From an uncultured virus (IMG/VR IMGVR_UViG_3300028196_000002) (lineage: Duplodnaviria > Heunggongvirae > Uroviricota > Caudoviricetes): a stretch of 64,000 nt of DNA. The notes below the pieces were generated by a model. The model had not been told where the DNA came from. It searched no databases and worked only from the letters and a program-made list of their open reading frames with translations. Shown here in pieces: positions 4,098-58,838 of the stretch; the stretch's first letter is position 1, and each line of letters starts with the position of its first letter. Location: the IMG/VR virus record IMGVR_UViG_3300028196_000002; one strand, given 5' to 3'. The translations under genes and the position numbers were made by a program.

Positions 4098-4856
4098 CTA
4101 AACACGAATGAATATCTTCTTGTCGTTTCGACGTTTATAATTATAGATATCCTCAATCATTCTAACATAGTCAGATTGATTACCACAAATCTTGAAATAG
4201 TGGGGTATGATTTCAGATTTCTTTATGAACTCATTTGTATTAAACTCATTCTCATACTTGTTTAATATACTTAACATACTACGTACAAAAATAGTACGTG
4301 AATATCCTTCGGGGAAAAACTTTTGTAGTGAAGTAATAAACTCTCCCCATTGTACCGCTTTACTATAACTACTTATCCTGAATTGACCATTGTTGAATTG
4401 GTCTTTACGAGTATTAGTAAAAGTACCATTGGTTAAAAGGAACATACTATCAGTTAAACTAAAATGGGGGAATACCTCCATATATTGTTTCAACTTAATA
4501 TAGTTACGATTACCTTTAGATACATAGAACTCCAAGAAATCTCTACGTGACCAAGAGGATGAATTGGTATTAGACCTAATTACCTCTTTTTCTCCATAGT
4601 TGTTTACTTGAAGATAATAGATTCCTTTACCACTCATCTTACTCGCGTGGTATCGGTGTTGTCCGTCAATAATTTCCATTTTCTTATTGACTACGATAGG
4701 ATTTACAAGAAGTCCCTCATTGGACATACTCTCATAAATTTTCTTAACTCGACTCATATTAACTGGTCGGTTGTTTTCCATTAACTTGAACATATCCAAG
4801 TTAGTTGTGTACTTGACAGTCATGTCACTTTTCGGTTTCATTGTTTTACTCGACAT
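4098..4856 (-). CDS. ParB/Srx-like N-terminal domain protein
   Basis: NR...PIVV...IIDGQHRY motif of the ParB/sulfiredoxin fold. Confidence 0.75.
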   Translation of the reverse strand: MSSKTMKPKSDMTVKYTTNLDMFKLMENNRPVNMSRVKKIYESMSNEGLLVNPIVVNKKMEIIDGQHRYHASKMSGKGIYYLQVNNYGEKEVIRSNTNSSSWSRRDFLEFYVSKGNRNYIKLKQYMEVFPHFSLTDSMFLLTNGTFTNTRKDQFNNGQFRISSYSKAVQWGEFITSLQKFFPEGYSRTIFVRSMLSILNKYENEFNTNEFIKKSEIIPHYFKICGNQSDYVRMIEDIYNYKRRNDKKIFIRV

Positions 4857-5103
4857 AATAAAAGTTGTTCGGTATTATCTCCCCGTCCGCGGTTTTAGTT
4901 ATTGATTGAGTACAAACATACAAATACTTTTTTTAATATCCAAATATAACTGTAAATAGTTTTTACTATTCCGCCAAATAGATTTTAAAATGAAGAGATA
5001 TGTGACTCGAGTTATGATCAGGATCCTGAGGTGAATCAGACTTTGATTGGCACCACACCCTCAGATCACAGACGACAGTGGGACCTGTTGTATTTTATTT
5101 GGC

Positions 5104-5250
5104 ACCCTCCCCACTATGTAGGGGTATGGGGGGACCCCCCTGCAGGACCCCCTCCCGTATCCCCCCTTATATAAGGGTATTTTCGACTTCTCCAGAGGGG
5201 GGTCAGAACCGTGACTGAAATTTTTTTGGAATTTTTTCGGAAAATGGGTA
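5104..5250. other. GC-rich palindromic junction (candidate genome end, packaging site or origin)
   Basis: G6-A-C6, CCTGCAGG, CCCTTATATAAGGG palindrome and T-tracts, at the point where transcription diverges. Confidence 0.4.
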
Positions 5251-5336
5251 AAACCTTTACATAGTAAAAAGGGGGTAAATCGAAAATAAAAATTTTGGGA
5301 GTTTTTCGTAGAAATCGAGAATTGTCAAAAAGAAGA

Positions 5337-5344
5337 TATTTATA
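5337..5344 (+). promoter_or_regulatory. Putative late promoter TATTTATW (representative)
   Basis: Same sense-strand motif precedes terminase (54063), portal (55900), protease (59279), scaffold (60044) and many other genes. Confidence 0.75.
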
Positions 5345-32140: not shown

Positions 32141-32383
32141 ATGAAGATATACGTAACAGAGAAACAGTTAGATTTAATCGTCTCTAATCAAACTGAATTT
32201 GTTGAACAGGAAGATGGAACAGAAACTGGTACCGGTGATGCTTCAGGTGGTGGAACAACCGCAGGGAGTAAACAATGGGAAAGTGGAGTGACAAGAGGTC
32301 CCGACAACCAAATAGGTGTTACTAAGTGGTCTGATGTAGTTGGATCAAAAATAACTAGAGGCAAAGCAAACCCACTATTTTAA
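32141..32383 (+). CDS. Small late protein, TExQL N-terminus
   Basis: MKIYVTEKQL; repeated W..TRG..N. Confidence 0.75.
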   Translation: MKIYVTEKQLDLIVSNQTEFVEQEDGTETGTGDASGGGTTAGSKQWESGVTRGPDNQIGVTKWSDVVGSKITRGKANPLF

Positions 32384-33648: not shown

Positions 33649-35739
33649 ATGAAATTAATTGACATTATACAAGAATCACCTATAGAAGGTGGTGAACAAC
33701 AGGTAGGTGAACAAGTAGCGGCACTGAAAGGTTTTCTAAAAGGGGTTACTAACCTAACTATTAAATCTGTAAGAACAGCAAAACCCGTATTAGCAAAGGA
33801 CTTACAAGCGGTTTTTAAGGCAAAATCAATTACAGGTATCAATAAAATAGATGATTTAGTTGTTGCGTTAGGTAAAGGTACTTTGAAGGGTAAGGCTTTA
33901 GGTGATGTTACTGTTGGTTTTATGAAAACTAAAGGGGTAAGTTCTAACTATATTGCGAGATTGGCTCCTGAGTTTGTAAACACACCAACTTTCATTAAGA
34001 AATATGCAAAAGACGGTAAGAAACTTACTACTGCATCTTTAAAATCAAGTGGTTATACCGATAATGCGATAAAGGAGATACTGAAGGCGTCTAAGGGTAG
34101 TAATAAATTCCAAAACGCATTGAAATCATCTAAGACTGTTGGAACAACTACTAAGGCTGTTGGAACTACCTCTAAGACTATAGGACAGGCGGCAGTTAAT
34201 TTAGGTAAGAAGGTTGTTCAAAAAGGTAAAAAATATATAACACCAATTGCAAAGAGACCTGGAGGAATTATTAAAATGGCCGCCAAGGGAGTATTTAGAT
34301 TGGGTAAGGGTATATTAGGTTTAGGTTTACTTAAACTTTTACTTATTAGTGGAGTGGGTTACATTGGTTATAAATGGTGGACTAGATATTCGGGAGATTT
34401 ACCTGAATTCCCATCGGATGATGATATAAATGCAACAAAGAATTGGATGGAGTGTATAGTTAATGCACTTGAAGGTGATGATAAGGCACATGAAATTGTG
34501 ATAGGTGAGACTAAAAATAGTATCCAATACGATATTGCAAATTTTGGTGGTGAAGAAACAGGGGGTTATATAATTTTTTACGATGATTACACTGTTAAAT
34601 CTAAAAACGGTAAAACAGGTAAATGGTCTTGTTCAACCACAAAGAACCTAAAAGAACAATCAGAGGGTGAGGTAACAAGTCAAATGATTAGTTTAGCAAT
34701 CACACAACTAGATGACCAATTAAGTGGAGATGCCTTTGAAGGTGACGCCACTGATATGAAAGATGCATATAAGATACTTAAGTCTTTAGAAGGTACGACT
34801 TATAAAGGAAAAGATTCAATACAGGTTATAAAGAGTAATTACCCTAAAATCACAGGAAAGAAGTTATCAGACCATATTGGTAACCTTACTAACTTAGATT
34901 TTACCGCAATTGAATTCCGTGACGAAATGTTAAGAATGATAGGATCTTCACCTAAAAAAGGTGGTGGAAGTGGTAAAGGAGATTCGGACGATAAAGGTGG
35001 ATCTGAAGGTAATGACAATCTTAACCACTTAAATATAATATGGGACAAATCCGAAGGTGGTGGTGGATCTAAAGGATCTAAGTACAAACAATGTGATAAT
35101 TTCCCATTAAACTTATATTGTATATCCGATAAGATTAAGGAAGTACAGAAGTGTTTAAACCCAACATCTAATTTAAAGGTGGATGGTTATTATGGTCCTT
35201 TGACTCTAAAGGCAATGCAAGACAGTTCATTATTTGCGGATAATGAAAAAGACGACACTATAATTACTAAAGCCATATATGATAGAATCATAGAGAACTG
35301 TAATAAGTCGAAAGATGCCGTTACGAAGGCGGACGGTGAAACAAAACGTGCAAAAGTAGAACCAGTAACTAAATTAGAGATTAAACCTATCAAATTGATG
35401 AAGTTAGACCCCATTAAAATGATTGATGTACATGGTTTAGATAAGTTAATGGCCCAATCTAAGAAAAGAATTGACGGGGAAAGAATTCAGTCAATTATCG
35501 ATACTAAGTTAAAGTTTAGAGGAGGTAAGTATATTCTTAAGTTAGATAATGAACTTACAGAGGATCAGTTGAAACACATTAATACATACATGGCGGCTAA
35601 AAGATACTCTTTAGATAAGAAAAGGGAAACTTTGAAAGATCAAAAGTATGTTTGGGCGGCGATAGATAGGGACGCAAGAAGAATCGAACGTAAAGTGAGG
35701 GACATTGCAAAAATAAAATCAAAAAACGATGAAAAATAA
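33649..35739 (+). CDS. Large late protein with TM segment and PG-binding-like motif
   Basis: Basic N-half, one TM helix, VQKCLN..LKVDGYYGPLT. Confidence 0.7.
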   Translation: MKLIDIIQESPIEGGEQQVGEQVAALKGFLKGVTNLTIKSVRTAKPVLAKDLQAVFKAKSITGINKIDDLVVALGKGTLKGKALGDVTVGFMKTKGVSSNYIARLAPEFVNTPTFIKKYAKDGKKLTTASLKSSGYTDNAIKEILKASKGSNKFQNALKSSKTVGTTTKAVGTTSKTIGQAAVNLGKKVVQKGKKYITPIAKRPGGIIKMAAKGVFRLGKGILGLGLLKLLLISGVGYIGYKWWTRYSGDLPEFPSDDDINATKNWMECIVNALEGDDKAHEIVIGETKNSIQYDIANFGGEETGGYIIFYDDYTVKSKNGKTGKWSCSTTKNLKEQSEGEVTSQMISLAITQLDDQLSGDAFEGDATDMKDAYKILKSLEGTTYKGKDSIQVIKSNYPKITGKKLSDHIGNLTNLDFTAIEFRDEMLRMIGSSPKKGGGSGKGDSDDKGGSEGNDNLNHLNIIWDKSEGGGGSKGSKYKQCDNFPLNLYCISDKIKEVQKCLNPTSNLKVDGYYGPLTLKAMQDSSLFADNEKDDTIITKAIYDRIIENCNKSKDAVTKADGETKRAKVEPVTKLEIKPIKLMKLDPIKMIDVHGLDKLMAQSKKRIDGERIQSIIDTKLKFRGGKYILKLDNELTEDQLKHINTYMAAKRYSLDKKRETLKDQKYVWAAIDRDARRIERKVRDIAKIKSKNDEK

Positions 35740-36421
35740 TAAAGAACATATGAGGTCAGACTTAATTAGTTCCTTAGTGAACAAAGAATTAAATGAAAGA
35801 TTTAGTTTAAATAACGATTTAAGACTCTTTTTAGAGAGTATGGAGGATCAAGAGGATGTGGAGAACGACGAAAAGGACTTAAAGACCTTAGACACCATTA
35901 TAGGTGTGTTAGATACGGTTAAGGATACCGACATGTCTGATGAGGAAATAGAACAAAGTATGGATGAAGGAATTCTCGATTCTTTAGGTTCTTTATTGGG
36001 TTTAACGGGGGATGTTAATAATCCAGGTGAAGGTGGTGTTGGAGATATTGCCTCAGGAACTGCAATGACTCAAATGAAAGAATGGTTGATACGTAAATTC
36101 TTAATAAATTTCATGGGAATGGATAGTGGAAAATTAGTCAGTTTCCTTTCAGGTTCCTTATCTGAACTTAGTATACCCGCATTACTTTCTATTGCAAGGG
36201 GTACAACTAACTGTAAAGAACATAGTGATGAAATTGCTGATGCATTTATGGTCGGTATATCAAGAATGATAGTAGGTGATGCAGAACAAGATTCTATGGG
36301 GTATAATGTATTAAAGAATGTGGGGGATGAATTCCTTAAAAATTCTAATGCAGGGGAATATATTGCAGATAAGGTATGTACGTTTGATCTCAGAGGTACT
36401 CTAAAAAGTTCATTCTCATAA
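35729..36421 (+). CDS. Hypothetical acidic protein
   Basis: 230 aa; terminator at about 36443-36469. Confidence 0.7.
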   Translation: MKNNKEHMRSDLISSLVNKELNERFSLNNDLRLFLESMEDQEDVENDEKDLKTLDTIIGVLDTVKDTDMSDEEIEQSMDEGILDSLGSLLGLTGDVNNPGEGGVGDIASGTAMTQMKEWLIRKFLINFMGMDSGKLVSFLSGSLSELSIPALLSIARGTTNCKEHSDEIADAFMVGISRMIVGDAEQDSMGYNVLKNVGDEFLKNSNAGEYIADKVCTFDLRGTLKSSFS

Positions 36422-36489
36422 GACTAAAAAAAAATGTTAATTAACCTCACGAATGTGGGGTTTTTTTTTGCCTAAACGATATTTATAGA

Positions 36490-36595
36490 TATGAAGTCGG
36501 TACTTTGGTCGGTATACGATTGATAAACGAAAATTAACGAAAAGGAGGTGATTTAATAATCTCGACAAGGAGGTCTAACGACCTCTTTGTTTGTT
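36490..36595 (+). ncRNA. Candidate late small RNA 1 (contains AAAGGAGGTGAT)
   Basis: Late box 36480-36487, own terminator GAGGTC-TAAC-GACCTC-TTTG, only a 10-codon ORF inside. Confidence 0.55.
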
Positions 36596-36871
36596 TACAA
36601 TACTTTGTAATTCGTTAAGTGTTTGTTTCTTCTGACTATCAATCTTGATTATTTTTTGAGTCTCGTATTTTTTCATGTATCTCTCCTCAAATGAACTACC
36701 GACACCTATTTCCACAATTGTAGATTCGTCAGGTACTAAAGGTTTTCTTTTTTTAGGTGTAATAATATCATCCACAAGAACATTTTCAAATACCTTTAAA
36801 TAATATTTGTCTTTCTTTCTATAGGTAATTTTATATACTACAACTACGGGTATCTTCATATTCTTATTCAT
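36575..36871 (-). CDS. Hypothetical protein
   Basis: Start trimmed to lie beyond the tmRNA terminator. Confidence 0.65.
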   Translation of the reverse strand: MNKNMKIPVVVVYKITYRKKDKYYLKVFENVLVDDIITPKKRKPLVPDESTIVEIGVGSSFEERYMKKYETQKIIKIDSQKKQTLNELQSIVNKQRGR

Positions 36872-36910
36872 AAAAAAAAGGGACCACTTAGGATCCCTTT
36901 TCACACTTAG

Positions 36911-37293
36911 TGGAGGTGGAGGGTTTCGAACCCTCGTCTTGTTAGTCTCAACTATAGAGGACTACACGTTTAGGATAGTATTTTCTAATACTCCAAAATT
37001 TGATGATCATTTTTTAACTATTGCAATCAACACCCAATAGACCATTCGATTTTAGATTCAATGGTGATCCATCCTTTTGGGAGTTTCTGTTTCTAGGTAT
37101 TTCACTCTCCAACCCATTGTAGAAATAACCTTAGGCTACTGCTACTTTAGAATCAACAGATACAAGACCCATTAATCCCATTTGTGAATAAACGTCTCCG
37201 TCTAAAAAACATCTCCGTAGATTTAAGTGATAGGAAATATCTCACTACGTGCCCTGTTATAATTGACTACTCCAATCAATTCCAGTCACCCCC
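36911..37293 (-). ncRNA. ssrA: tmRNA
   Basis: 5' GGGGGTG pairs with 3' CACCTCC-A including G3:U; T-arm GAGGGTTCGAAACCCTC; internal tag frame ending VAVA-stop; 383 nt. Confidence 0.9.
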
Positions 37294-37530
37294 TTACTTA
37301 ATGTCCTTAGAAGGTCCGTTACCATTTGAAGGTTTTCTTCTTGGTTTTCTTCTTGGTTTCTTCTTCTTAGGTTTTGTAAAATCCTCTTCGAATTTTTCAA
37401 ACTTTTCGACCTTAGGTTTTCTCTTTGGTCTTGGTTTTCTCTTTGGTTTAGGTTTGGAAACCTCAACAGGTTTCACTTCTTCTTGTTTTGAACCAAAAAG
37501 TCTTTTAAAAAAATCTATAATTTTCTTCAT
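37294..37530 (-). CDS. Small K/R/P-rich basic protein
   Basis: 78 aa; stop codon directly abuts tmRNA 5' end. Confidence 0.7.
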   Translation of the reverse strand: MKKIIDFFKRLFGSKQEEVKPVEVSKPKPKRKPRPKRKPKVEKFEKFEEDFTKPKKKKPRRKPRRKPSNGNGPSKDIK

Positions 37531-43083: not shown

Positions 43084-43821
43084 ATGAGAATATTACTACT
43101 AACTTTAGTATTAGTATTCACAACAAGTGTACAGTCTCAGGTCGTATTTAACGTACCTGAGATCGATGTACCCGTAAGTGATTATATTAACCTACCTGTA
43201 GAAATTGAAACTGCGGGTGAGATTGTTGGTAGTCTTGAATTTGCATTGAACTACGACCCAAACTATTTAGAGTTTGTGTCAATCACCATAACACCTAAAG
43301 CACAAGAGTGGTTAACATATACCATGGATTGGGAAGGTGAAACCGTTAGATGGGGAGGTTATGACGCTTCCTTTGGTAATTTTACTATAAGTAATACGAC
43401 AGAATTATTTACGGTGAGGTTTAGGGTTACTAATCAAGATTGGGATACAATTCCAATTACGATAGGTAGAAAAACTGCCGGTACAGAATTAGGATGGGAT
43501 GTTGAGGTTGAAAATACTGATGGGTATGTAAATAAACGATCGATGCCTTTTAATACCTCACCAACTGACGGTATTTATGGGATTGTTTATCCTGTACCAA
43601 CAAAAGGTCCAATTACATTTGACCTAACAGTACCAGATAATGGGTATTATGTGATTAGAGTATTGAATTATGGTGGATCAGAATTTCTAAAACAAAGAAA
43701 GAAGTTCTTTGCTGGATGGGTACAATTTCAAATGGATTTATCCTCATTACCACAAGGTGTTTATTTATTACATATTACCAATGGACAATTTGTCAAAACA
43801 TTTAAAACAATAAAACAATGA
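43084..43821 (+). CDS. Cohesin-like protein with T9SS type-A C-terminal sorting domain
   Basis: Signal peptide; VGSLEFALNYDPNYLEF; YPVPT...DLSSLPQGVYLLHI...KTIKQ. Confidence 0.8.
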   Translation: MRILLLTLVLVFTTSVQSQVVFNVPEIDVPVSDYINLPVEIETAGEIVGSLEFALNYDPNYLEFVSITITPKAQEWLTYTMDWEGETVRWGGYDASFGNFTISNTTELFTVRFRVTNQDWDTIPITIGRKTAGTELGWDVEVENTDGYVNKRSMPFNTSPTDGIYGIVYPVPTKGPITFDLTVPDNGYYVIRVLNYGGSEFLKQRKKFFAGWVQFQMDLSSLPQGVYLLHITNGQFVKTFKTIKQ

Positions 43822-46700: not shown

Positions 46701-48716
46701 TTAAATGAGGGGTATATTTTTTGATAATTCCACATTTCCTTCACTAATTTTTAGGATAACATCAGATTCCTCCGTAATGTCTCCTTCTAAAATCTTATCA
46801 CTTATAAAATCCTCACACAAGTTTTGAATGATTCGTTTTATTGGTCTCGCACCGTACTCTTCTTCAGAATTCCTATTTAAAACTTCCTGAGCCACACTAC
46901 GATCAAATTTAATTTTGTAGTTACTCTCAGTTAATCTCTTAGATAATTTATTTAATTCAATCATAACAATTTTTCTAAGTGATTTGTCTTTTAATTTATT
47001 AAATACAATAATATCGTCAATCCTATTAAGGAATTCAGGACTAAACTTTTGTTTTAGAGATTTTTTAATAATTGAGTCCTTAACCTTAGCTCTATCATCA
47101 TCTGATGTAAATCCAACTCCACCACCGAAGTCTACGACTTTCTTAGCACCTACGTTAGATGTCATAATTATTAAAGTATTCGTAAAATTAACTTTCCTCC
47201 CAAAAGAGTCCGTCAATCTACCCTCATCTAATATCTGTAACAATATGTTAAAGACATCTTTGTGTGCCTTTTCGATTTCATCAAACAAAACAACTGAGAA
47301 TGGATTATTTTTAATCTTTTCAGTTAGTTGACCACCTTCCTCGAATCCAACATACCCTGGAGGTGACCCAATTAGTTTAGATACGTTGTGTTTTTCCATG
47401 AACTCACTCATATCAACCCTTATAATTTTATCGGGATCACCAAACAATGTGTTTGCCAAAGTCTTAGCCAAATGTGTTTTACCCACACCTGTAGATCCTA
47501 AGAACATAAAAGAACCGATAGGTTTGTTATGTCCCTTAACACCAACTCTATTTCTTCTTATAGATTTAGAAATTATCTCAACCGCCTCATCTTGACCAAT
47601 AACGTTTTTAGATATTGTTTTTTCTAACGATAATAAAGATTTGGTTTCTTTAGTGTCTAATTTATTAATTGGTACTCCCGTTATGTTAGTAACAATATTG
47701 TAAACATCATCCACTGTAATGGGTTTTCTATTTAATTGTTGTTCGTCATTCCACTTCTTTTTTTCGTTATCTAACTTCTTAAGAATTTTTCTTTCCTGAT
47801 CTCTAAGGTTTGCCGCCTTCTCATAATCTTGATTCTTAACGACATCTAATTTTTTGAGTCTAACGGATTCACAACTTTTCTTTAGTTTCTCAATAGAATC
47901 AGGTATTTTTACGTTTATCTTTTTTTCAGAACCCAACTCATCTAATACATCAATTGCCTTGTCGGGAAACTGTTTATCCGTAATAAATCTTTTACATAAC
48001 GTAACTATTGTTTCTATAACATCCTTTTGATAGGAAACTCTATGGAAATCTTCATACGAATCTTTCAAGTTTTTTAAGATGTCAACCGTCTCAACAGTAG
48101 TTGGTTCATTCAGTATTATTTTTTGAAATCTCCTTACGAGTGCACCATCTTTTTCTATATTCTTTTTATATTCATCAAAAGTGGTTGCCCCAATACATTG
48201 TATCTCACCCCTCGCAAGTGCGGGTTTTAATATGTTTGCGGCATCCATAGAACCTGAAGCGTTACCCGCACCAACCATCGTGTGTATTTCATCAATAAAG
48301 ATAACAACGTTAGGTGCGTCTTGTAATTCATTTAAAATTACCTTAATCCTTTCCTCAAACTGACCTCTGTATTTTGTACCCGCAACTAAAGATGTTAAGT
48401 CTAACGACATAATTCTTTTATCTAAAAGATTTGTGGGACAGTTACCTGTACTGATTAGTAGTGCGAGTTTTTCAACTAATGCGGACTTACCAACACCAGC
48501 ATCACCTACAACGATAACATTATTCTTTTTTTTACGAGATAAAATTTGTGCAATTCTAAGTACTTCTTTATCCCTACCTATAATAGGGTCTATATCACCT
48601 TCTAACGCTAATTGTGTTAGATCACGTGAAAAATTATCAAGTACTGGTGTCTTACTACCTTTCTTACTCCTCTTACTTTGGGATTGAGTTCCCTCTTCGA
48701 AAAAATCTACTGACAT
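46701..48716 (-). CDS. clpC: ClpC-like AAA+ ATPase lacking the N-terminal domain
   Basis: Two Walker A ([16 protein letters not shown]), UVR middle domain [15 protein letters not shown] ClpP-docking loop. Confidence 0.9.
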
Positions 48717-48897: not shown

Positions 48898-49272
48898 ATG
48901 ATTTTATTTAGAAATGATCCATGGATCAAATTTGTTGATGAGTTTTTTGACTCTAAAACTGAGACCACTCAACAAAGTGGTGTTGTTAACGTACAAAGAC
49001 AGGAAAATGAGGAAAGGTATGAATTACAGTTTCTTGTGCCGGGTCTCAATAAAAAGGACATTAACATTGTCGTAGAAGAAGACTTTCTAAAGGTTAAATA
49101 TAATAAACCTGAAGACTCTTCATCTTATATGGGTACCTTTGAAAGAACTTACAGTTTACCCGAAGATGTCGATGATAAAAAAATTGACGCTAAGGTTAAA
49201 GATGGGATATTATATATAAATTTCCCTAAGACTAAGAAAAAAAGTAAACAAAGAACCATTTCAGTTTTATAA
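48898..49272 (+). CDS. Small heat shock protein (Hsp20)
   Basis: VPGL.KKDI...FERTYSLPEDVD...A...DGIL. Confidence 0.9.
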   Translation: MILFRNDPWIKFVDEFFDSKTETTQQSGVVNVQRQENEERYELQFLVPGLNKKDINIVVEEDFLKVKYNKPEDSSSYMGTFERTYSLPEDVDDKKIDAKVKDGILYINFPKTKKKSKQRTISVL

Positions 49273-58468: not shown

Positions 58469-58542
58469 TATTCCTTTACGGCAGCTACCTTAGAGGTGTA
58501 AATCCCTGTTTTTGATACATCAAAGTCTCAAATGGGGATTTT

Positions 58543-58734
58543 TTATTGCTCGTTTTCGTCGTTCAGTTTCTGTATATACACCGCCTTTTGTTTTTGTAGT
58601 CTTTTTTTGACGGATGGTTTAGTGAATTGTTTATTCTCTCTGAGTTTATTGATTTGTTTTACGTTTCTTACTTTTCTACGCAATTTCTTTATCGCTTTCT
58701 CAATACCACCTTTGTCTACTTTTATTATTAGCAT
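58543..58734 (-). CDS. rpsU: Ribosomal protein bS21
   Basis: MLIIKV...IEKAIKKLRRK...FTKPSVKKR; own late box at 58752-58759. Confidence 0.9.
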   Translation of the reverse strand: MLIIKVDKGGIEKAIKKLRRKVRNVKQINKLRENKQFTKPSVKKRLQKQKAVYIQKLNDENEQ

Positions 58735-58838
58735 ATATAATTTTGTATATTAATAAATATACTAGAAAAATTTGTTTTTCCAAAGAAAATTACTTATATT
58801 TTATTAAACACCATTAAAAGATTATAATAATGAATTAA

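What the first reader, a model, noticed from the sequence alone, without database searches (positions are those of the whole stretch)
36541..36552. Perfect 12-nt Shine-Dalgarno with no start codon, in a phage that otherwise lacks SD sites
Seen: AAAGGAGGTGAT, the exact complement of the conserved 16S tail AUCACCUCCUUU, inside sRNA 1 with no ATG/GTG/TTG at initiation distance. The gene starts I inspected have A/T-rich leaders without SD. Known: Bacteroidia sequester the anti-SD using bS21/bS18/bS6, and flavobacterial rpsU uses an extended SD for autoregulation. Inference: sRNA 1 binds 30S subunits with an exposed anti-SD (for example bS21-free ones); RNA 2 would partly mask it, and phage bS21 could belong to the same circuit.
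Basis: partly seen in the sequence, partly recalled or inferred. Interest (0 to 1): 0.78.

Follow-up and report, generated by a model that had tools for sequence, protein, structure and literature searches.

The report
Phage small RNA mimicking rpsU ribosome-docking site
A marine T4-like phage that carries its own ribosomal protein bS21 also keeps a small, folded, non-coding RNA whose middle copies the unusually long ribosome-docking site of the host's own bS21 gene but has no gene behind it, so it probably works as a decoy for the normally hidden tail of host ribosomal RNA.

Summary
The 12-mer is real (36541-36552, +), has no ATG/GTG/TTG at initiation distance, and 2 of 88 gene starts in the window have an SD-like leader. 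It lies in a conserved, roughly 100-nt non-coding RNA gene (about 36494-36596, +): phage promoter-like motif, a hairpin with compensatory changes, the SD block, an invariant AUCUCG and a terminator hairpin.

A search pattern without the SD recovered the element in 38 phage or metagenome loci and in none of 40 bacterial hits. The block AAAAGGAGGUG is kept in 20 of 22 distinct copies, including a divergent one; the final AU is not conserved.

Against the usual Flavobacteriales 16S tail (AACACCUCCUUUCU, 46 of 48 genomes) the copies pair over 10-13 bp, -16.5 to -22.5 kcal/mol. That is the range reported as distinctive for host rpsU, the one strongly SD-led gene. All five element-bearing phages examined encode bS21, and the element always sits convergent to a phage tmRNA.

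Best reading: a decoy of the rpsU initiation region that captures bS21-free 30S subunits. Binding is not shown. The family matches nothing in Rfam, and three literature searches found no description.

The parts
36443..36470 (+). Intrinsic terminator of the upstream 230-aa gene (35729-36421); marks the 5' border of the unit
   Evidence: Terminator scan. A hairpin plus T-run stands at the same place in relatives.
36478..36488 (+). Promoter-like motif GATATTTATAG (core TATTTATA 36480-36487), with no protein gene downstream on this strand
   Evidence: TATTTATA: 19 of 21 copies in the window are intergenic and 12 of 21 lie within 60 nt upstream of a same-strand start. TATTTAT is invariant in 22 of 22 family members. 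The same motif stands before the window's bS21 gene. Promoter activity is inferred.
36495..36521 (+). Hairpin P1; invariant loop UUUGGUCG (36504-36511) on a variable stem
   Evidence: 5 of 10 pairs have compensatory changes on the MAFFT alignment A1. 8 of 10 do on the model-fitted alignment A3 that includes the divergent L228. The covariation score exceeds 500 of 500 shuffles in both.
36520..36530 (+). Conserved unpaired block UUGAUAAACGA
   Evidence: Invariant in 21 of 21 close members, but it was part of the search pattern, so this is biased. It is not kept in divergent L228.
36540..36550 (+). Conserved extended-SD block AAAAGGAGGUG; the finding's 12-mer is 36541-36552
   Evidence: Identical in 20 of 22 distinct members; 2 have AAAGGAGAGUG, which still pairs as 8 bp + bulge + 4 bp, -17.9 kcal/mol. 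The flanks vary in sequence and length. It was not part of the search pattern.
36559..36564 (+). Invariant AUCUCG. Its AUC lies 8 nt after GGAGGUG (6-9 nt in the family). It can also pair with GAGGU of the SD as a weak helix P2
   Evidence: Invariant in 22 of 22 members. P2 shows no compensatory change, 0 of 5 pairs. In host rpsU the distance from GGAGGUG to AUG is 8 nt in 2 of 2 leaders that have this string.
36564..36596 (+). Terminator hairpin (stem 36566-36575 / 36580-36589, loop UAAC) and U-rich tail. In the window's clade the 5' arm is a second AAGGAGGU
   Evidence: Folds. The 5' arm varies G/A opposite invariant U (G.U or A-U), which fits only the + strand. The second SD is not conserved: AAAGGGGU in most members.
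36575..36859 (-). ORF of 94 aa with no family match, convergent to the RNA; its stop codon lies in the terminator loop. Context, not part of the unit
   Evidence: Absent in some relatives, where the tmRNA 3' end lies 145-155 nt from the element instead of about 396-414 nt.
36908..37293 (-). Phage tmRNA gene, always convergent to the RNA
   Evidence: ARAGORN and Rfam RF00023, 66.1 bits. A tmRNA follows the element in every relative examined, including divergent L228, whose tmRNA sequence differs.
58543..58734 (-). Phage ribosomal protein bS21 gene, SD-less, with the TATTTAT motif upstream; proposed partner in the circuit
   Evidence: tblastn E 2e-27; PF01165 at 38.8 bits against a cut-off of 27; leader read. 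It lies on the reverse strand among portal, prohead protease and capsid genes, as described for bS21 phages (PMC9723584, abstract).

Best explanation
The 12-mer is the core of a phage-encoded non-coding RNA of about 100 nt (about 36494-36596, + strand). The RNA is made from a phage promoter of the same type as the structural and bS21 genes and ends at its own hairpin terminator. It presents AAAAGGAGGUG, a copy of the extended Shine-Dalgarno that in Flavobacteriales is otherwise found only on rpsU, the host bS21 gene. A near-cognate AUC replaces AUG at the same spacing, and no reading frame follows. Proposed mechanism (inferred): Bacteroidia 30S subunits hide the 16S tail under bS21/bS18/bS6, and only subunits lacking bS21 expose it. 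Those subunits normally translate rpsU to restore host bS21. The phage RNA pairs with the exposed tail over 10-13 bp and so ties up those subunits, or competes with rpsU mRNA for them. This blunts host bS21 replenishment while the SD-less phage bS21 mRNA is translated and phage bS21 takes the vacant site. Shown here: the gene, its structure, the conservation, the pairing potential and the co-occurrence with bS21. Inferred: transcription start, timing, ribosome binding and the effect on rpsU.
For: (1) Real RNA gene. P1 has compensatory changes in 5 of 10 pairs (A1) and 8 of 10 pairs (A3). The + strand folds to -29.2 kcal/mol (z -3.2, 0 of 200 shuffles as good); the - strand folds to -17.4 (z -1.2, 27 of 200). 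G.U pairs are frequent in P1 and the terminator. The promoter-like motif is invariant.
(2) No coding. The 5' mini-ORF ATG is lost in L021, L032 and L026. 3- versus 4-nt terminator loops shift any frame that starts at AUC.
(3) The SD block was recovered by a pattern that did not contain it: true hits were 9 of 13 viral and 29 of 60 metagenome. It is identical in 20 of 22 distinct copies between variable spacers, and in divergent L228 it extends to 13 bp.
(4) Pairing to the Flavobacteriales tail is -16.5 to -22.5 kcal/mol over 10-13 contiguous bp. Three Flavobacteriaceae rpsU leaders give -19.0 to -20.7, and phage bS21 leaders give -0.8 to -2.5. The published range that sets rpsU apart is -14 to -21 kcal/mol and 9-13 bp (PMC9976891, section 32).
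(5) Opening the block costs only 2.1-5.4 kcal/mol.
(6) bS21 is present in 4 of 4 element-bearing contigs found independently of bS21, and in the window.
(7) In 23 bS21-phage records the 10-mer AAAGGAGGTG occurs 7 times, 6 of them in this RNA.
(8) The element was not found in bacteria: 0 of 40 pattern hits and 0 of 151 Flavobacteriales genomes with the covariance model.
(9) PMC9976891 (discussion) proposes rpsU autoregulation as a host counter-defence to phage bS21 replacement, which is the step this RNA would defeat.
Against: No binding, expression level, strand or ends were measured. RNA evidence is one 154-nt metatranscriptome contig (36512-36665) in 1 of 4 RNA runs, without strand information; it crosses the terminator and could be DNA carry-over.
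The family is shallow (85% mean column identity, one divergent member), so part of the invariance is shared ancestry.
The SD core can pair with the invariant AUCUC (P2), so it may not be fully exposed.
The raw frequency of the 10-mer in bS21 phages is no higher than that of its reversed control, 7 versus 6.
Many bS21 phages lack the RNA, including G016 (77% complete, with both bS21 and tmRNA), so it is not a general requirement of bS21 phages.
Its strictest neighbour is the tmRNA, not bS21, which lies 16-22 kb away.
The host and its 16S tail are unknown.
Confidence: 0.45

Rival explanations
1. An ordinary base-pairing sRNA. The GA-rich block is a seed that pairs with a CU-rich site in a host or phage mRNA or other RNA, not with 16S rRNA.
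For: Conserved unpaired blocks in a hairpin-flanked RNA with a terminator are the usual anatomy of trans-acting sRNAs. Two further invariant motifs, the loop UUUGGUCG and AUCUCG, have no explanation in the decoy model.
Against: No site in the 64-kb window matches the complement of the 11-mer apart from its own antisense. With 2 mismatches there are 13 hits against 8.5 expected, none in a leader. The best duplexes are scattered coding hits. The match to the 16S tail lengthens to 13 bp in the divergent member. Host mRNAs could not be searched because the host is unknown.
Confidence: 0.15
2. A decoy or ligand for a protein rather than for rRNA. Candidates: free bS21 or bS1, a GGA/GGAG-binding regulator, or a RegB-like phage nuclease that recognises GGAG (RegB recalled from T4 biology, not tested).
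For: The invariant loop UUUGGUCG and AUCUCG could be protein contacts. The RNA co-occurs with bS21.
Against: No such protein was identified next to the RNA: the 230-aa and 94-aa neighbours match no Pfam or PHROG family. The block tracks the 16S tail letter by letter for up to 13 nt, more than a short protein motif would need.
Confidence: 0.1
3. An orphan SD that recruits a 30S subunit only to protect the RNA from decay (STAB-SD-like; recalled from the B. thuringiensis cryIIIA literature). The working part of the RNA would lie elsewhere, for example the P1 loop.
For: An SD without a start codon is the defining feature of STAB-SD. The invariant P1 loop suggests a second functional site.
Against: Ordinary Bacteroidia ribosomes do not recognise SDs (PMC9976891 and PMC7797042, abstracts). 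Stabilisation would therefore work only through the rare bS21-free subunits, which brings it back to the same interaction. The SD sits mid-RNA and not at the 5' end.
Confidence: 0.1
4. A start-codon-poor, stop-less mini-message. Ribosomes docked on the SD initiate at AUC, run to the 3' end of the terminated RNA and are resolved by the adjacent phage tmRNA, so the two genes form one module.
For: AUC lies 6-9 nt after GGAGGUG in 22 of 22 members. No in-frame stop precedes the terminator in the window. The convergent tmRNA neighbour is kept even where the tmRNA sequence has diverged.
Against: AUC is a very poor initiator (general knowledge). The frame is not conserved because loop length changes. 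The stable terminator stem starts 5 nt after AUC. tRNA, tmRNA and small-RNA genes commonly cluster in T4-like phages, so adjacency alone is weak evidence.
Confidence: 0.07
5. A functionless relic of the host rpsU leader captured together with bS21, or the functional strand is the - strand (an anti-SD look-alike in the 3' region of the ORF94/tmRNA transcripts).
For: The window's 12-mer is identical to the one in the Salegentibacter rpsU leader. The - strand does carry AUCACCUCCUUU.
Against: Apart from the SD there is no similarity to rpsU leaders, and the RNA lies 16-22 kb from bS21. Compensatory changes, an invariant promoter motif and the terminator show selection on the + strand RNA. G.U pairs would become A.C mismatches on the - strand, and the - strand fold is no better than shuffles. 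The element persists where ORF94 is absent.
Confidence: 0.05

Closest known systems
Extended SD of rpsU mRNA and the bS21 autoregulatory loop in Flavobacteriales (PMC9976891: abstract, passages and section 32 read; PMC13000453: abstract only; PMC7797042: abstract in the search listing only)
   Same: A complement of 10-13 nt to the 16S 3' tail. Pairing energy is -16.5 to -22.5 kcal/mol, against -19.0 to -20.7 for three rpsU leaders. The spacing to the initiator position is the same, 8 nt. It is the only site of that strength in an otherwise SD-free genome.
   Different: AUC instead of AUG and no reading frame. It is a free-standing RNA with its own promoter motif, 5' hairpin and terminator. It is encoded by a phage, not found in 151 Flavobacteriales genomes, and is not linked to the phage's own bS21 gene, whose leader has no SD.
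STAB-SD, the orphan Shine-Dalgarno in the cryIIIA 5' UTR of Bacillus thuringiensis (recalled; also named in an earlier scan note)
   Same: A strong SD with no start codon behind it, thought to act by holding a 30S subunit.
   Different: STAB-SD is a cis element at the 5' end of a long mRNA, in an SD-using host, and stabilises that mRNA. Here a terminator follows within 50 nt and the host's ribosomes normally ignore SDs.
RNA sponges and decoys (CsrB/RsmZ-type protein sponges, sRNA sponges; general knowledge, with reviews seen only in the listing)
   Same: A small non-coding RNA that would act by titrating a cellular factor through mimicry of its natural mRNA target.
   Different: The titrated factor would be the ribosome's own 16S tail in a sub-population of subunits. 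There is one site per RNA instead of many, and it is phage-encoded.
Phage-encoded bS21 in Bacteroidota-infecting myoviruses (PMC9723584: abstract and passages read)
   Same: Same kind of phage: bS21 on the reverse strand among terminase, portal, prohead protease and capsid genes.
   Different: That paper holds no occurrence of 'tmRNA', 'sRNA' or 'non-coding'. The RNA described here is an additional, undescribed component, restricted to a marine sub-clade.

Membership tests
Independent small non-coding RNA gene | Own promoter and terminator | tested here: inconclusive
   The phage promoter-like motif is invariant in 22 of 22 members and behaves as a gene-proximal motif in the window. A hairpin plus U-tract is present in 21 close members; in L228 the U-tract does not directly follow. 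Promoter activity and RNA ends were not measured.
Independent small non-coding RNA gene | Conserved secondary structure with compensatory changes | tested here: met
   P1 has 5 of 10 pairs with compensatory changes (A1) and 8 of 10 (A3). In both, 0 of 500 shuffles reach the covariation score, and slid controls give 41-54% of cells paired against 98%.
Independent small non-coding RNA gene | No conserved reading frame | tested here: met
   The mini-ORF ATG is lost in 3 lineages. Any frame after AUC is shifted by loop-length changes. No canonical start follows the SD.
rpsU-type extended-SD translation initiation region | 9-13 contiguous bp with the 16S 3' tail, -14 to -21 kcal/mol (PMC9976891, section 32) | tested here: met
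   10-13 bp in 20 of 22 members; 8 bp + bulge + 4 bp in 2. Energies are -16.5 to -22.5 kcal/mol against the tail read from a Salegentibacter 16S gene.
rpsU-type extended-SD translation initiation region | AUG at initiation distance followed by the bS21 reading frame | tested here: not met
   AUC stands at that distance and no ORF follows. The element works like an rpsU initiation region but is not one.
STAB-SD | Orphan SD in the 5' UTR of a downstream mRNA that it stabilises | tested here: not met
   The terminator follows 14 nt after the 12-mer, and the next genes are on the other strand.
Any Rfam family | Match to a curated covariance model | tested here: not met
   No gathering-level hit here in the whole-window scan. 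In the permissive scan of 36380-36700 the best hit has E = 1 and all scores lie far below the gathering scores.
Ribosome (anti-SD) decoy | Physical binding to 30S subunits with a free 16S tail, and competition with rpsU mRNA | not testable with these tools
   Only pairing energies and accessibility were computed.

The most novel reading that the evidence does not exclude
A phage counter-counter-defence made of RNA. bS21-encoding Flavobacteriia phages deploy a mimic of the rpsU initiation region (extended SD plus a dead AUC 'start'). The mimic locks the bS21-free 30S sub-population and shuts off the host's only SD-dependent feedback loop, so that phage bS21 rather than host bS21 refills ribosomes. 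The letters 3' of GGAGGUG (GAU/GAA versus GUG/GUU/GUUC) would then track the host's 16S nucleotides at the AUCACC/AACACC position and act as a host-range marker. The constant pairing with a phage tmRNA gene hints that the same module also deals with the stalled complexes it creates.
Probability: 0.35. Interest if true: 0.9.

Novelty: new variant of a known kind. Interest (0 to 1): 0.8.

Why it matters
Bacteroidia ribosomes keep a canonical anti-SD but hide it. The only established use of the hidden tail is bS21 autoregulation through rpsU.

Why so many aquatic phages carry bS21, and how phage bS21 displaces the host protein, are open questions. The authors of the rpsU work explicitly raise the second one (PMC9976891, discussion).

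A conserved phage RNA that copies the rpsU docking site gives those questions a concrete, cheap handle. The RNA is about 100 nt and can be tested with existing F. johnsoniae strains, reporters and purified bS21-free ribosomes.

If confirmed, it would be the first natural RNA decoy aimed at the ribosome's anti-SD. It would also show specialised (bS21-free) ribosomes being targeted in a phage-host conflict.

Tried and rejected
- No whole genome is held for the window. The phage collection gave no DNA match for 35700-37400.
- First idea, a 10-codon leaderless mini-ORF at the RNA's 5' end (ATG 36491): rejected, because the ATG is not conserved.
- Peptide from ATA/ATC after the SD: rejected. It runs through the terminator and its frame is not kept.
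- Long-range helix UAAACG:CGUUUA proposed by RNAalifold, and helix P2 (GAGGU:AUCUC): no compensatory change, so both are left open.
- Second SD in the terminator arm (36567-36574): specific to the window's clade, AAAGGGGU elsewhere. The count of AAGGAGGT in the window (2) equals expectation (2.24).
- Search for 'RNA 2' or any partner in the window: nothing beyond the antisense strand. The candidate TTACCCCCTTTT at 5267-5278 (-) is not conserved in G003.
- Weak model hits in G022, G011 and next to bS21 in G005 (22.8-27.5 bits) lack P1 and the SD, so they are not members.
- Scan of viral contigs for the perfect 14-nt tail complement AGAAAGGAGGTGTT: 111 or more hits. 71 of the 111 examined are ordinary SDs with an ORF and the rest are mixed, so the scan says nothing about this family.
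- Metatranscriptome contigs do not cover 36300-36511 or 36666-36909 in the four runs laid. This is no evidence of silence.
- PHROGs and Pfam gave nothing for the 230-aa and 94-aa neighbours.
- Host homologue: none in 151 Flavobacteriales genomes with stricter filters. No positive control genome exists for this search.

Full report
**Observation.** AAAGGAGGTGAT is at 36541-36552 on the + strand.
- An exact copy is expected 0.03 times in a window of this composition; 3 of 100 shuffles have one. With one mismatch allowed the expectation is 0.55. The occurrence alone is therefore only mildly unusual.
- No ATG, GTG or TTG stands 4-14 nt after GGAGG. The only GTG overlaps the SD and reads GTG-ATT-TAA. 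No + strand ORF follows.
- For 88 predicted gene starts I computed pairing of the 20 nt upstream with the tail quoted in the finding. Only 2 of 88 reach -6 kcal/mol, against 11% of 2000 random positions. The mean is -0.75 against -2.39 kcal/mol. The site in question (-18.1) is the strongest in a sliding scan of both strands.
- The observation, including 'a phage that otherwise lacks SD sites', is confirmed.

**What the window is.** It is a T4-like myovirus.
- It carries a T4-type portal, Gp23 capsid, prohead protease and large terminase.
- It encodes a protein with a type IX secretion sorting domain.
- Its nearest cultured capsid relatives are Flavobacterium and Rhodothermus phages, at 28-40% identity.
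- It carries a tmRNA and four tRNAs.
- It has a bS21 gene at 58543-58734 on the - strand (tblastn; PF01165 at 38.8 bits against a cut-off of 27). The gene lies among the portal, protease and capsid genes, the arrangement described for bS21 phages of Bacteroidota (PMC9723584, abstract).

**Anatomy of the locus.** The motif lies in a convergent gap. In order along the + strand:
- the 230-aa gene, ending at 36421, and its terminator (36443-36470);
- the motif GATATTTATAG (36478-36488);
- a hairpin, P1 (36495-36521);
- UUGAUAAACGA;
- a variable spacer;
- AAAAGGAGGUG (36540-36550);
- a second variable spacer;
- AUCUCG (36559-36564);
- a 10-bp hairpin with a U-rich tail (36566-36596).

On the - strand follow a 94-aa ORF (36575-36859) and the tmRNA (36908-37293).

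TATTTATA behaves as this phage's gene-proximal promoter-like motif. Of 21 copies, 19 are intergenic and 12 lie within 60 nt upstream of a same-strand start, including terminase and prohead protease. The bS21 gene has it too. The copy at 36480 has no + strand gene for 3.1 kb.

**Relatives.**
- A neighbour-protein search gave one contig with the same gap at about 90% identity.
- A 21-nt string from the tmRNA 3' end found 18 viral loci. Six of them (five with GGAGG; one variant) carry the element beside the tmRNA.
- I then searched with TTTGGTCG-N(5-12)-TTGATAAACGA, which contains no part of the SD. True elements were 9 of 13 viral hits, 29 of 60 metagenome hits and 0 of 40 bacterial-genome hits. 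They were classified by the terminator arm. Several metagenome contigs are the same records as the viral ones.
- This gave 21 distinct sequences including the window's (L059 is identical to the window and was left out), aligned as A1.
- A covariance model built from A1 found one copy in the window (148 bits; the next hit scores 23.8 bits).
- Among 28 phage records searched (3 further records were not held), the model hit the six known records. It also found one divergent member, L228 (65.6 bits), in a phage whose bS21 is 54% identical.

**Is it an RNA, and on which strand?**
- The + strand folds to -29.2 kcal/mol (z -3.2; 0 of 200 shuffles fold as well). The - strand folds to -17.4 (z -1.2; 27 of 200).
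- On the MAFFT alignment, P1 has compensatory changes in 5 of 10 pairs. No shuffle out of 500 reaches the covariation score, and slid controls pair 41-50% of cells against 98%.
- On the model-fitted alignment with L228 (which leans towards the structure), 8 of 10 P1 pairs and 1 of 10 terminator pairs have compensatory changes.
- The terminator's 5' arm varies between G and A opposite an invariant U. P1 holds many G.U pairs. These would be A.C mismatches on the other strand.
- The P1 loop UUUGGUCG, the SD block and AUCUCG are invariant or nearly so, while the spacers between them vary in sequence and length.
- The 10-codon ORF at the 5' end of the window's copy loses its ATG in three lineages. 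Terminator loops of 3 or 4 nt shift any frame that begins at AUC.
- It is therefore a structured non-coding RNA on the + strand. It matches no Rfam family.

**The SD block.** AAAAGGAGGUG is identical in 20 of 22 distinct members. The two exceptions read AAAGGAGAGUG.

**The 16S tail.**
- The tail read from a Salegentibacter 16S gene is GGAACACCUCCUUUCU.
- In a sample of 301 Flavobacteriales genomes, 48 have a match. Of these, 46 read AACACC and 2 read AUCACC.
- Against the common tail the members pair over 10 bp (the window), 11, 12 or 13 contiguous bp (L228), at -16.5 to -22.5 kcal/mol. The variant pairs as 8 bp + bulge + 4 bp, at -17.9.
- The window's full 12 bp would hold only in a host of the minority type.
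- Opening the block in the folded RNA costs 2.1-5.4 kcal/mol. Part of that cost is a possible weak helix between GAGGU and the invariant AUCUC, which shows no covariation.

**Link to rpsU and bS21.**
- Three Flavobacteriaceae rpsU leaders carry AGAAAGGAGGUG-type SDs, at -19.0 to -20.7 kcal/mol. Two other Flavobacteriales genomes do not.
- Phage bS21 leaders have none (-0.8 to -2.5).
- The published work states that in Flavobacteriales rpsU is typically the only gene with such an SD: 9-13 bp, -14 to -21 kcal/mol. It also states that ribosomes lacking bS21 translate rpsU faster, which closes an autoregulatory loop (PMC9976891, abstract and section 32; PMC13000453, abstract).
- GGAGGUG is followed after 8 nt by AUG in rpsU (2 of 2 leaders with that string). 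In the window it is followed after 8 nt by AUC, and after 6-9 nt across the family.
- bS21 is encoded on 4 of 4 element-bearing contigs that were found without reference to bS21, at 16-18 kb from the element. The window has it at 22 kb.
- In 23 bS21-phage records the 10-mer AAAGGAGGTG occurs 7 times, 6 of them in this RNA. Its reversed control occurs 6 times, so the placement is special, not the frequency.
- The RNA is confined to a sub-clade. 15 of 22 bS21-bearing records searched have no true hit. One of these is G016, which is 77% complete and has both bS21 and a tmRNA but a different sequence beside the tmRNA.
- None of 5 other tmRNA phages has the RNA, although 2 of them encode bS21.
- The tightest neighbour is the tmRNA. 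Its 3' end string follows within 727 nt in 28 of 38 loci. ARAGORN finds a tmRNA in two of the contigs that lack that string and in L228, whose tmRNA differs in sequence.

**Expression.** In four metatranscriptome contig sets the tmRNA is covered in 4 of 4. The RNA locus is covered by one 154-nt contig (36512-36665) in 1 of 4. That contig carries no strand information and runs past the terminator. This is a weak hint only.

**Mechanism.** The best-supported reading is a mimic of the rpsU initiation region. It has an extended SD, a near-cognate AUC at the start position and no message. It would bind the 16S tail where the tail is free, that is, on 30S subunits lacking bS21.
- This would compete with rpsU mRNA and hold those subunits, while the SD-less phage bS21 mRNA is translated from the same promoter type.
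- The authors of PMC9976891 (discussion) propose that rpsU autoregulation could be a host counter-defence against phage bS21 replacement. This RNA would be the phage's answer.
- Every step after 'can pair' is inference.
- Rivals are set out in their own section, with the tests that would separate them: a conventional mRNA-targeting sRNA, a protein decoy, a self-stabilising orphan SD, a stop-less mini-message feeding the tmRNA, and a relic or - strand element.

**Novelty.**
- Three full-text searches found no description of such an RNA: bS21/phage/anti-SD; phage-encoded small RNA/anti-SD/sponge; rpsU/Flavobacteri/phage/sRNA.
- The bS21-phage paper holds no occurrence of 'tmRNA', 'sRNA' or 'non-coding'.
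- After I had reached this reading, the scan's own notes turned up three unchecked AI reports of similar SD-bearing, ORF-less RNAs in other bS21 phages. They are leads, not independent evidence.
- One of those notes claims a second, partly antisense RNA. I found none in this window.

Noticed in passing
window 4856-5340 (read on the - strand): Large intergenic region in a 33% G+C phage holding runs of G and C (GACCCCCC..., AAGGGGGGATACGGGAGGGGGTCCTGCAGGGGGGTCCCCCC..., GTGGGGAGGGTGCC). It is conserved at 76% identity over about 220 nt in the related record G003, with the G/C-run core nearly invariant. It could be another structured RNA or an origin-like element. No Rfam hit.
   Followed up: partly
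window 36908-37293 (-): Phage tmRNA (RF00023, 66.1 bits; ARAGORN tag VDSKVAVA*). It is covered by contigs in 4 of 4 metatranscriptome runs, and contig ends fall at 36910-36912 in two studies, at the tmRNA 3' end. One RNA contig replaces 215 nt of the middle with 232 other letters, probably a related phage's tmRNA.
   Followed up: partly
window 58532-58753: The longest ORF here (73 aa, + strand) is a shadow. The real gene is bS21 on the - strand (58543-58734). A longest-ORF gene call misses it.
   Followed up: yes
window, e.g. 32129, 54063, 5337, 7431, 10644: TATTTATA motif 5-30 nt before many start codons. In two cases (genes at 32141 and 54075) only 5 nt separate motif and ATG, which suggests leaderless or nearly leaderless mRNAs.
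   Followed up: partly
window 36575-36859 (-): 94-aa ORF between the small RNA and the tmRNA, with no Pfam or PHROG match. It is present in most relatives but absent in the L021/L032 lineage and in L228.
   Followed up: partly
window 36491-36523 (+): Ten-codon ORF (MKSVLWSVYD*) starting 4 nt after the promoter-like motif. It is kept in close relatives but its ATG is lost in three lineages. It overlaps hairpin P1.
   Followed up: yes
window 43084-43821, 46701-48716, 48898-49272: Host-like accessory genes: a cohesin-domain protein with a type IX secretion sorting tail, a ClpB-like double AAA+ ATPase, and an Hsp20.
   Followed up: no
loci L243, L272, L292, L296, L298, L304, L314, L332, L337, L342, L344, L345: A recurrent viral-contig locus with the perfect 14-nt complement of the Bacteroidota 16S tail directly after a TAA stop, with no canonical start at the usual distance (the sequence continues ...TTTATCGTAACTG...). 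The hosts are unknown.
   Followed up: no
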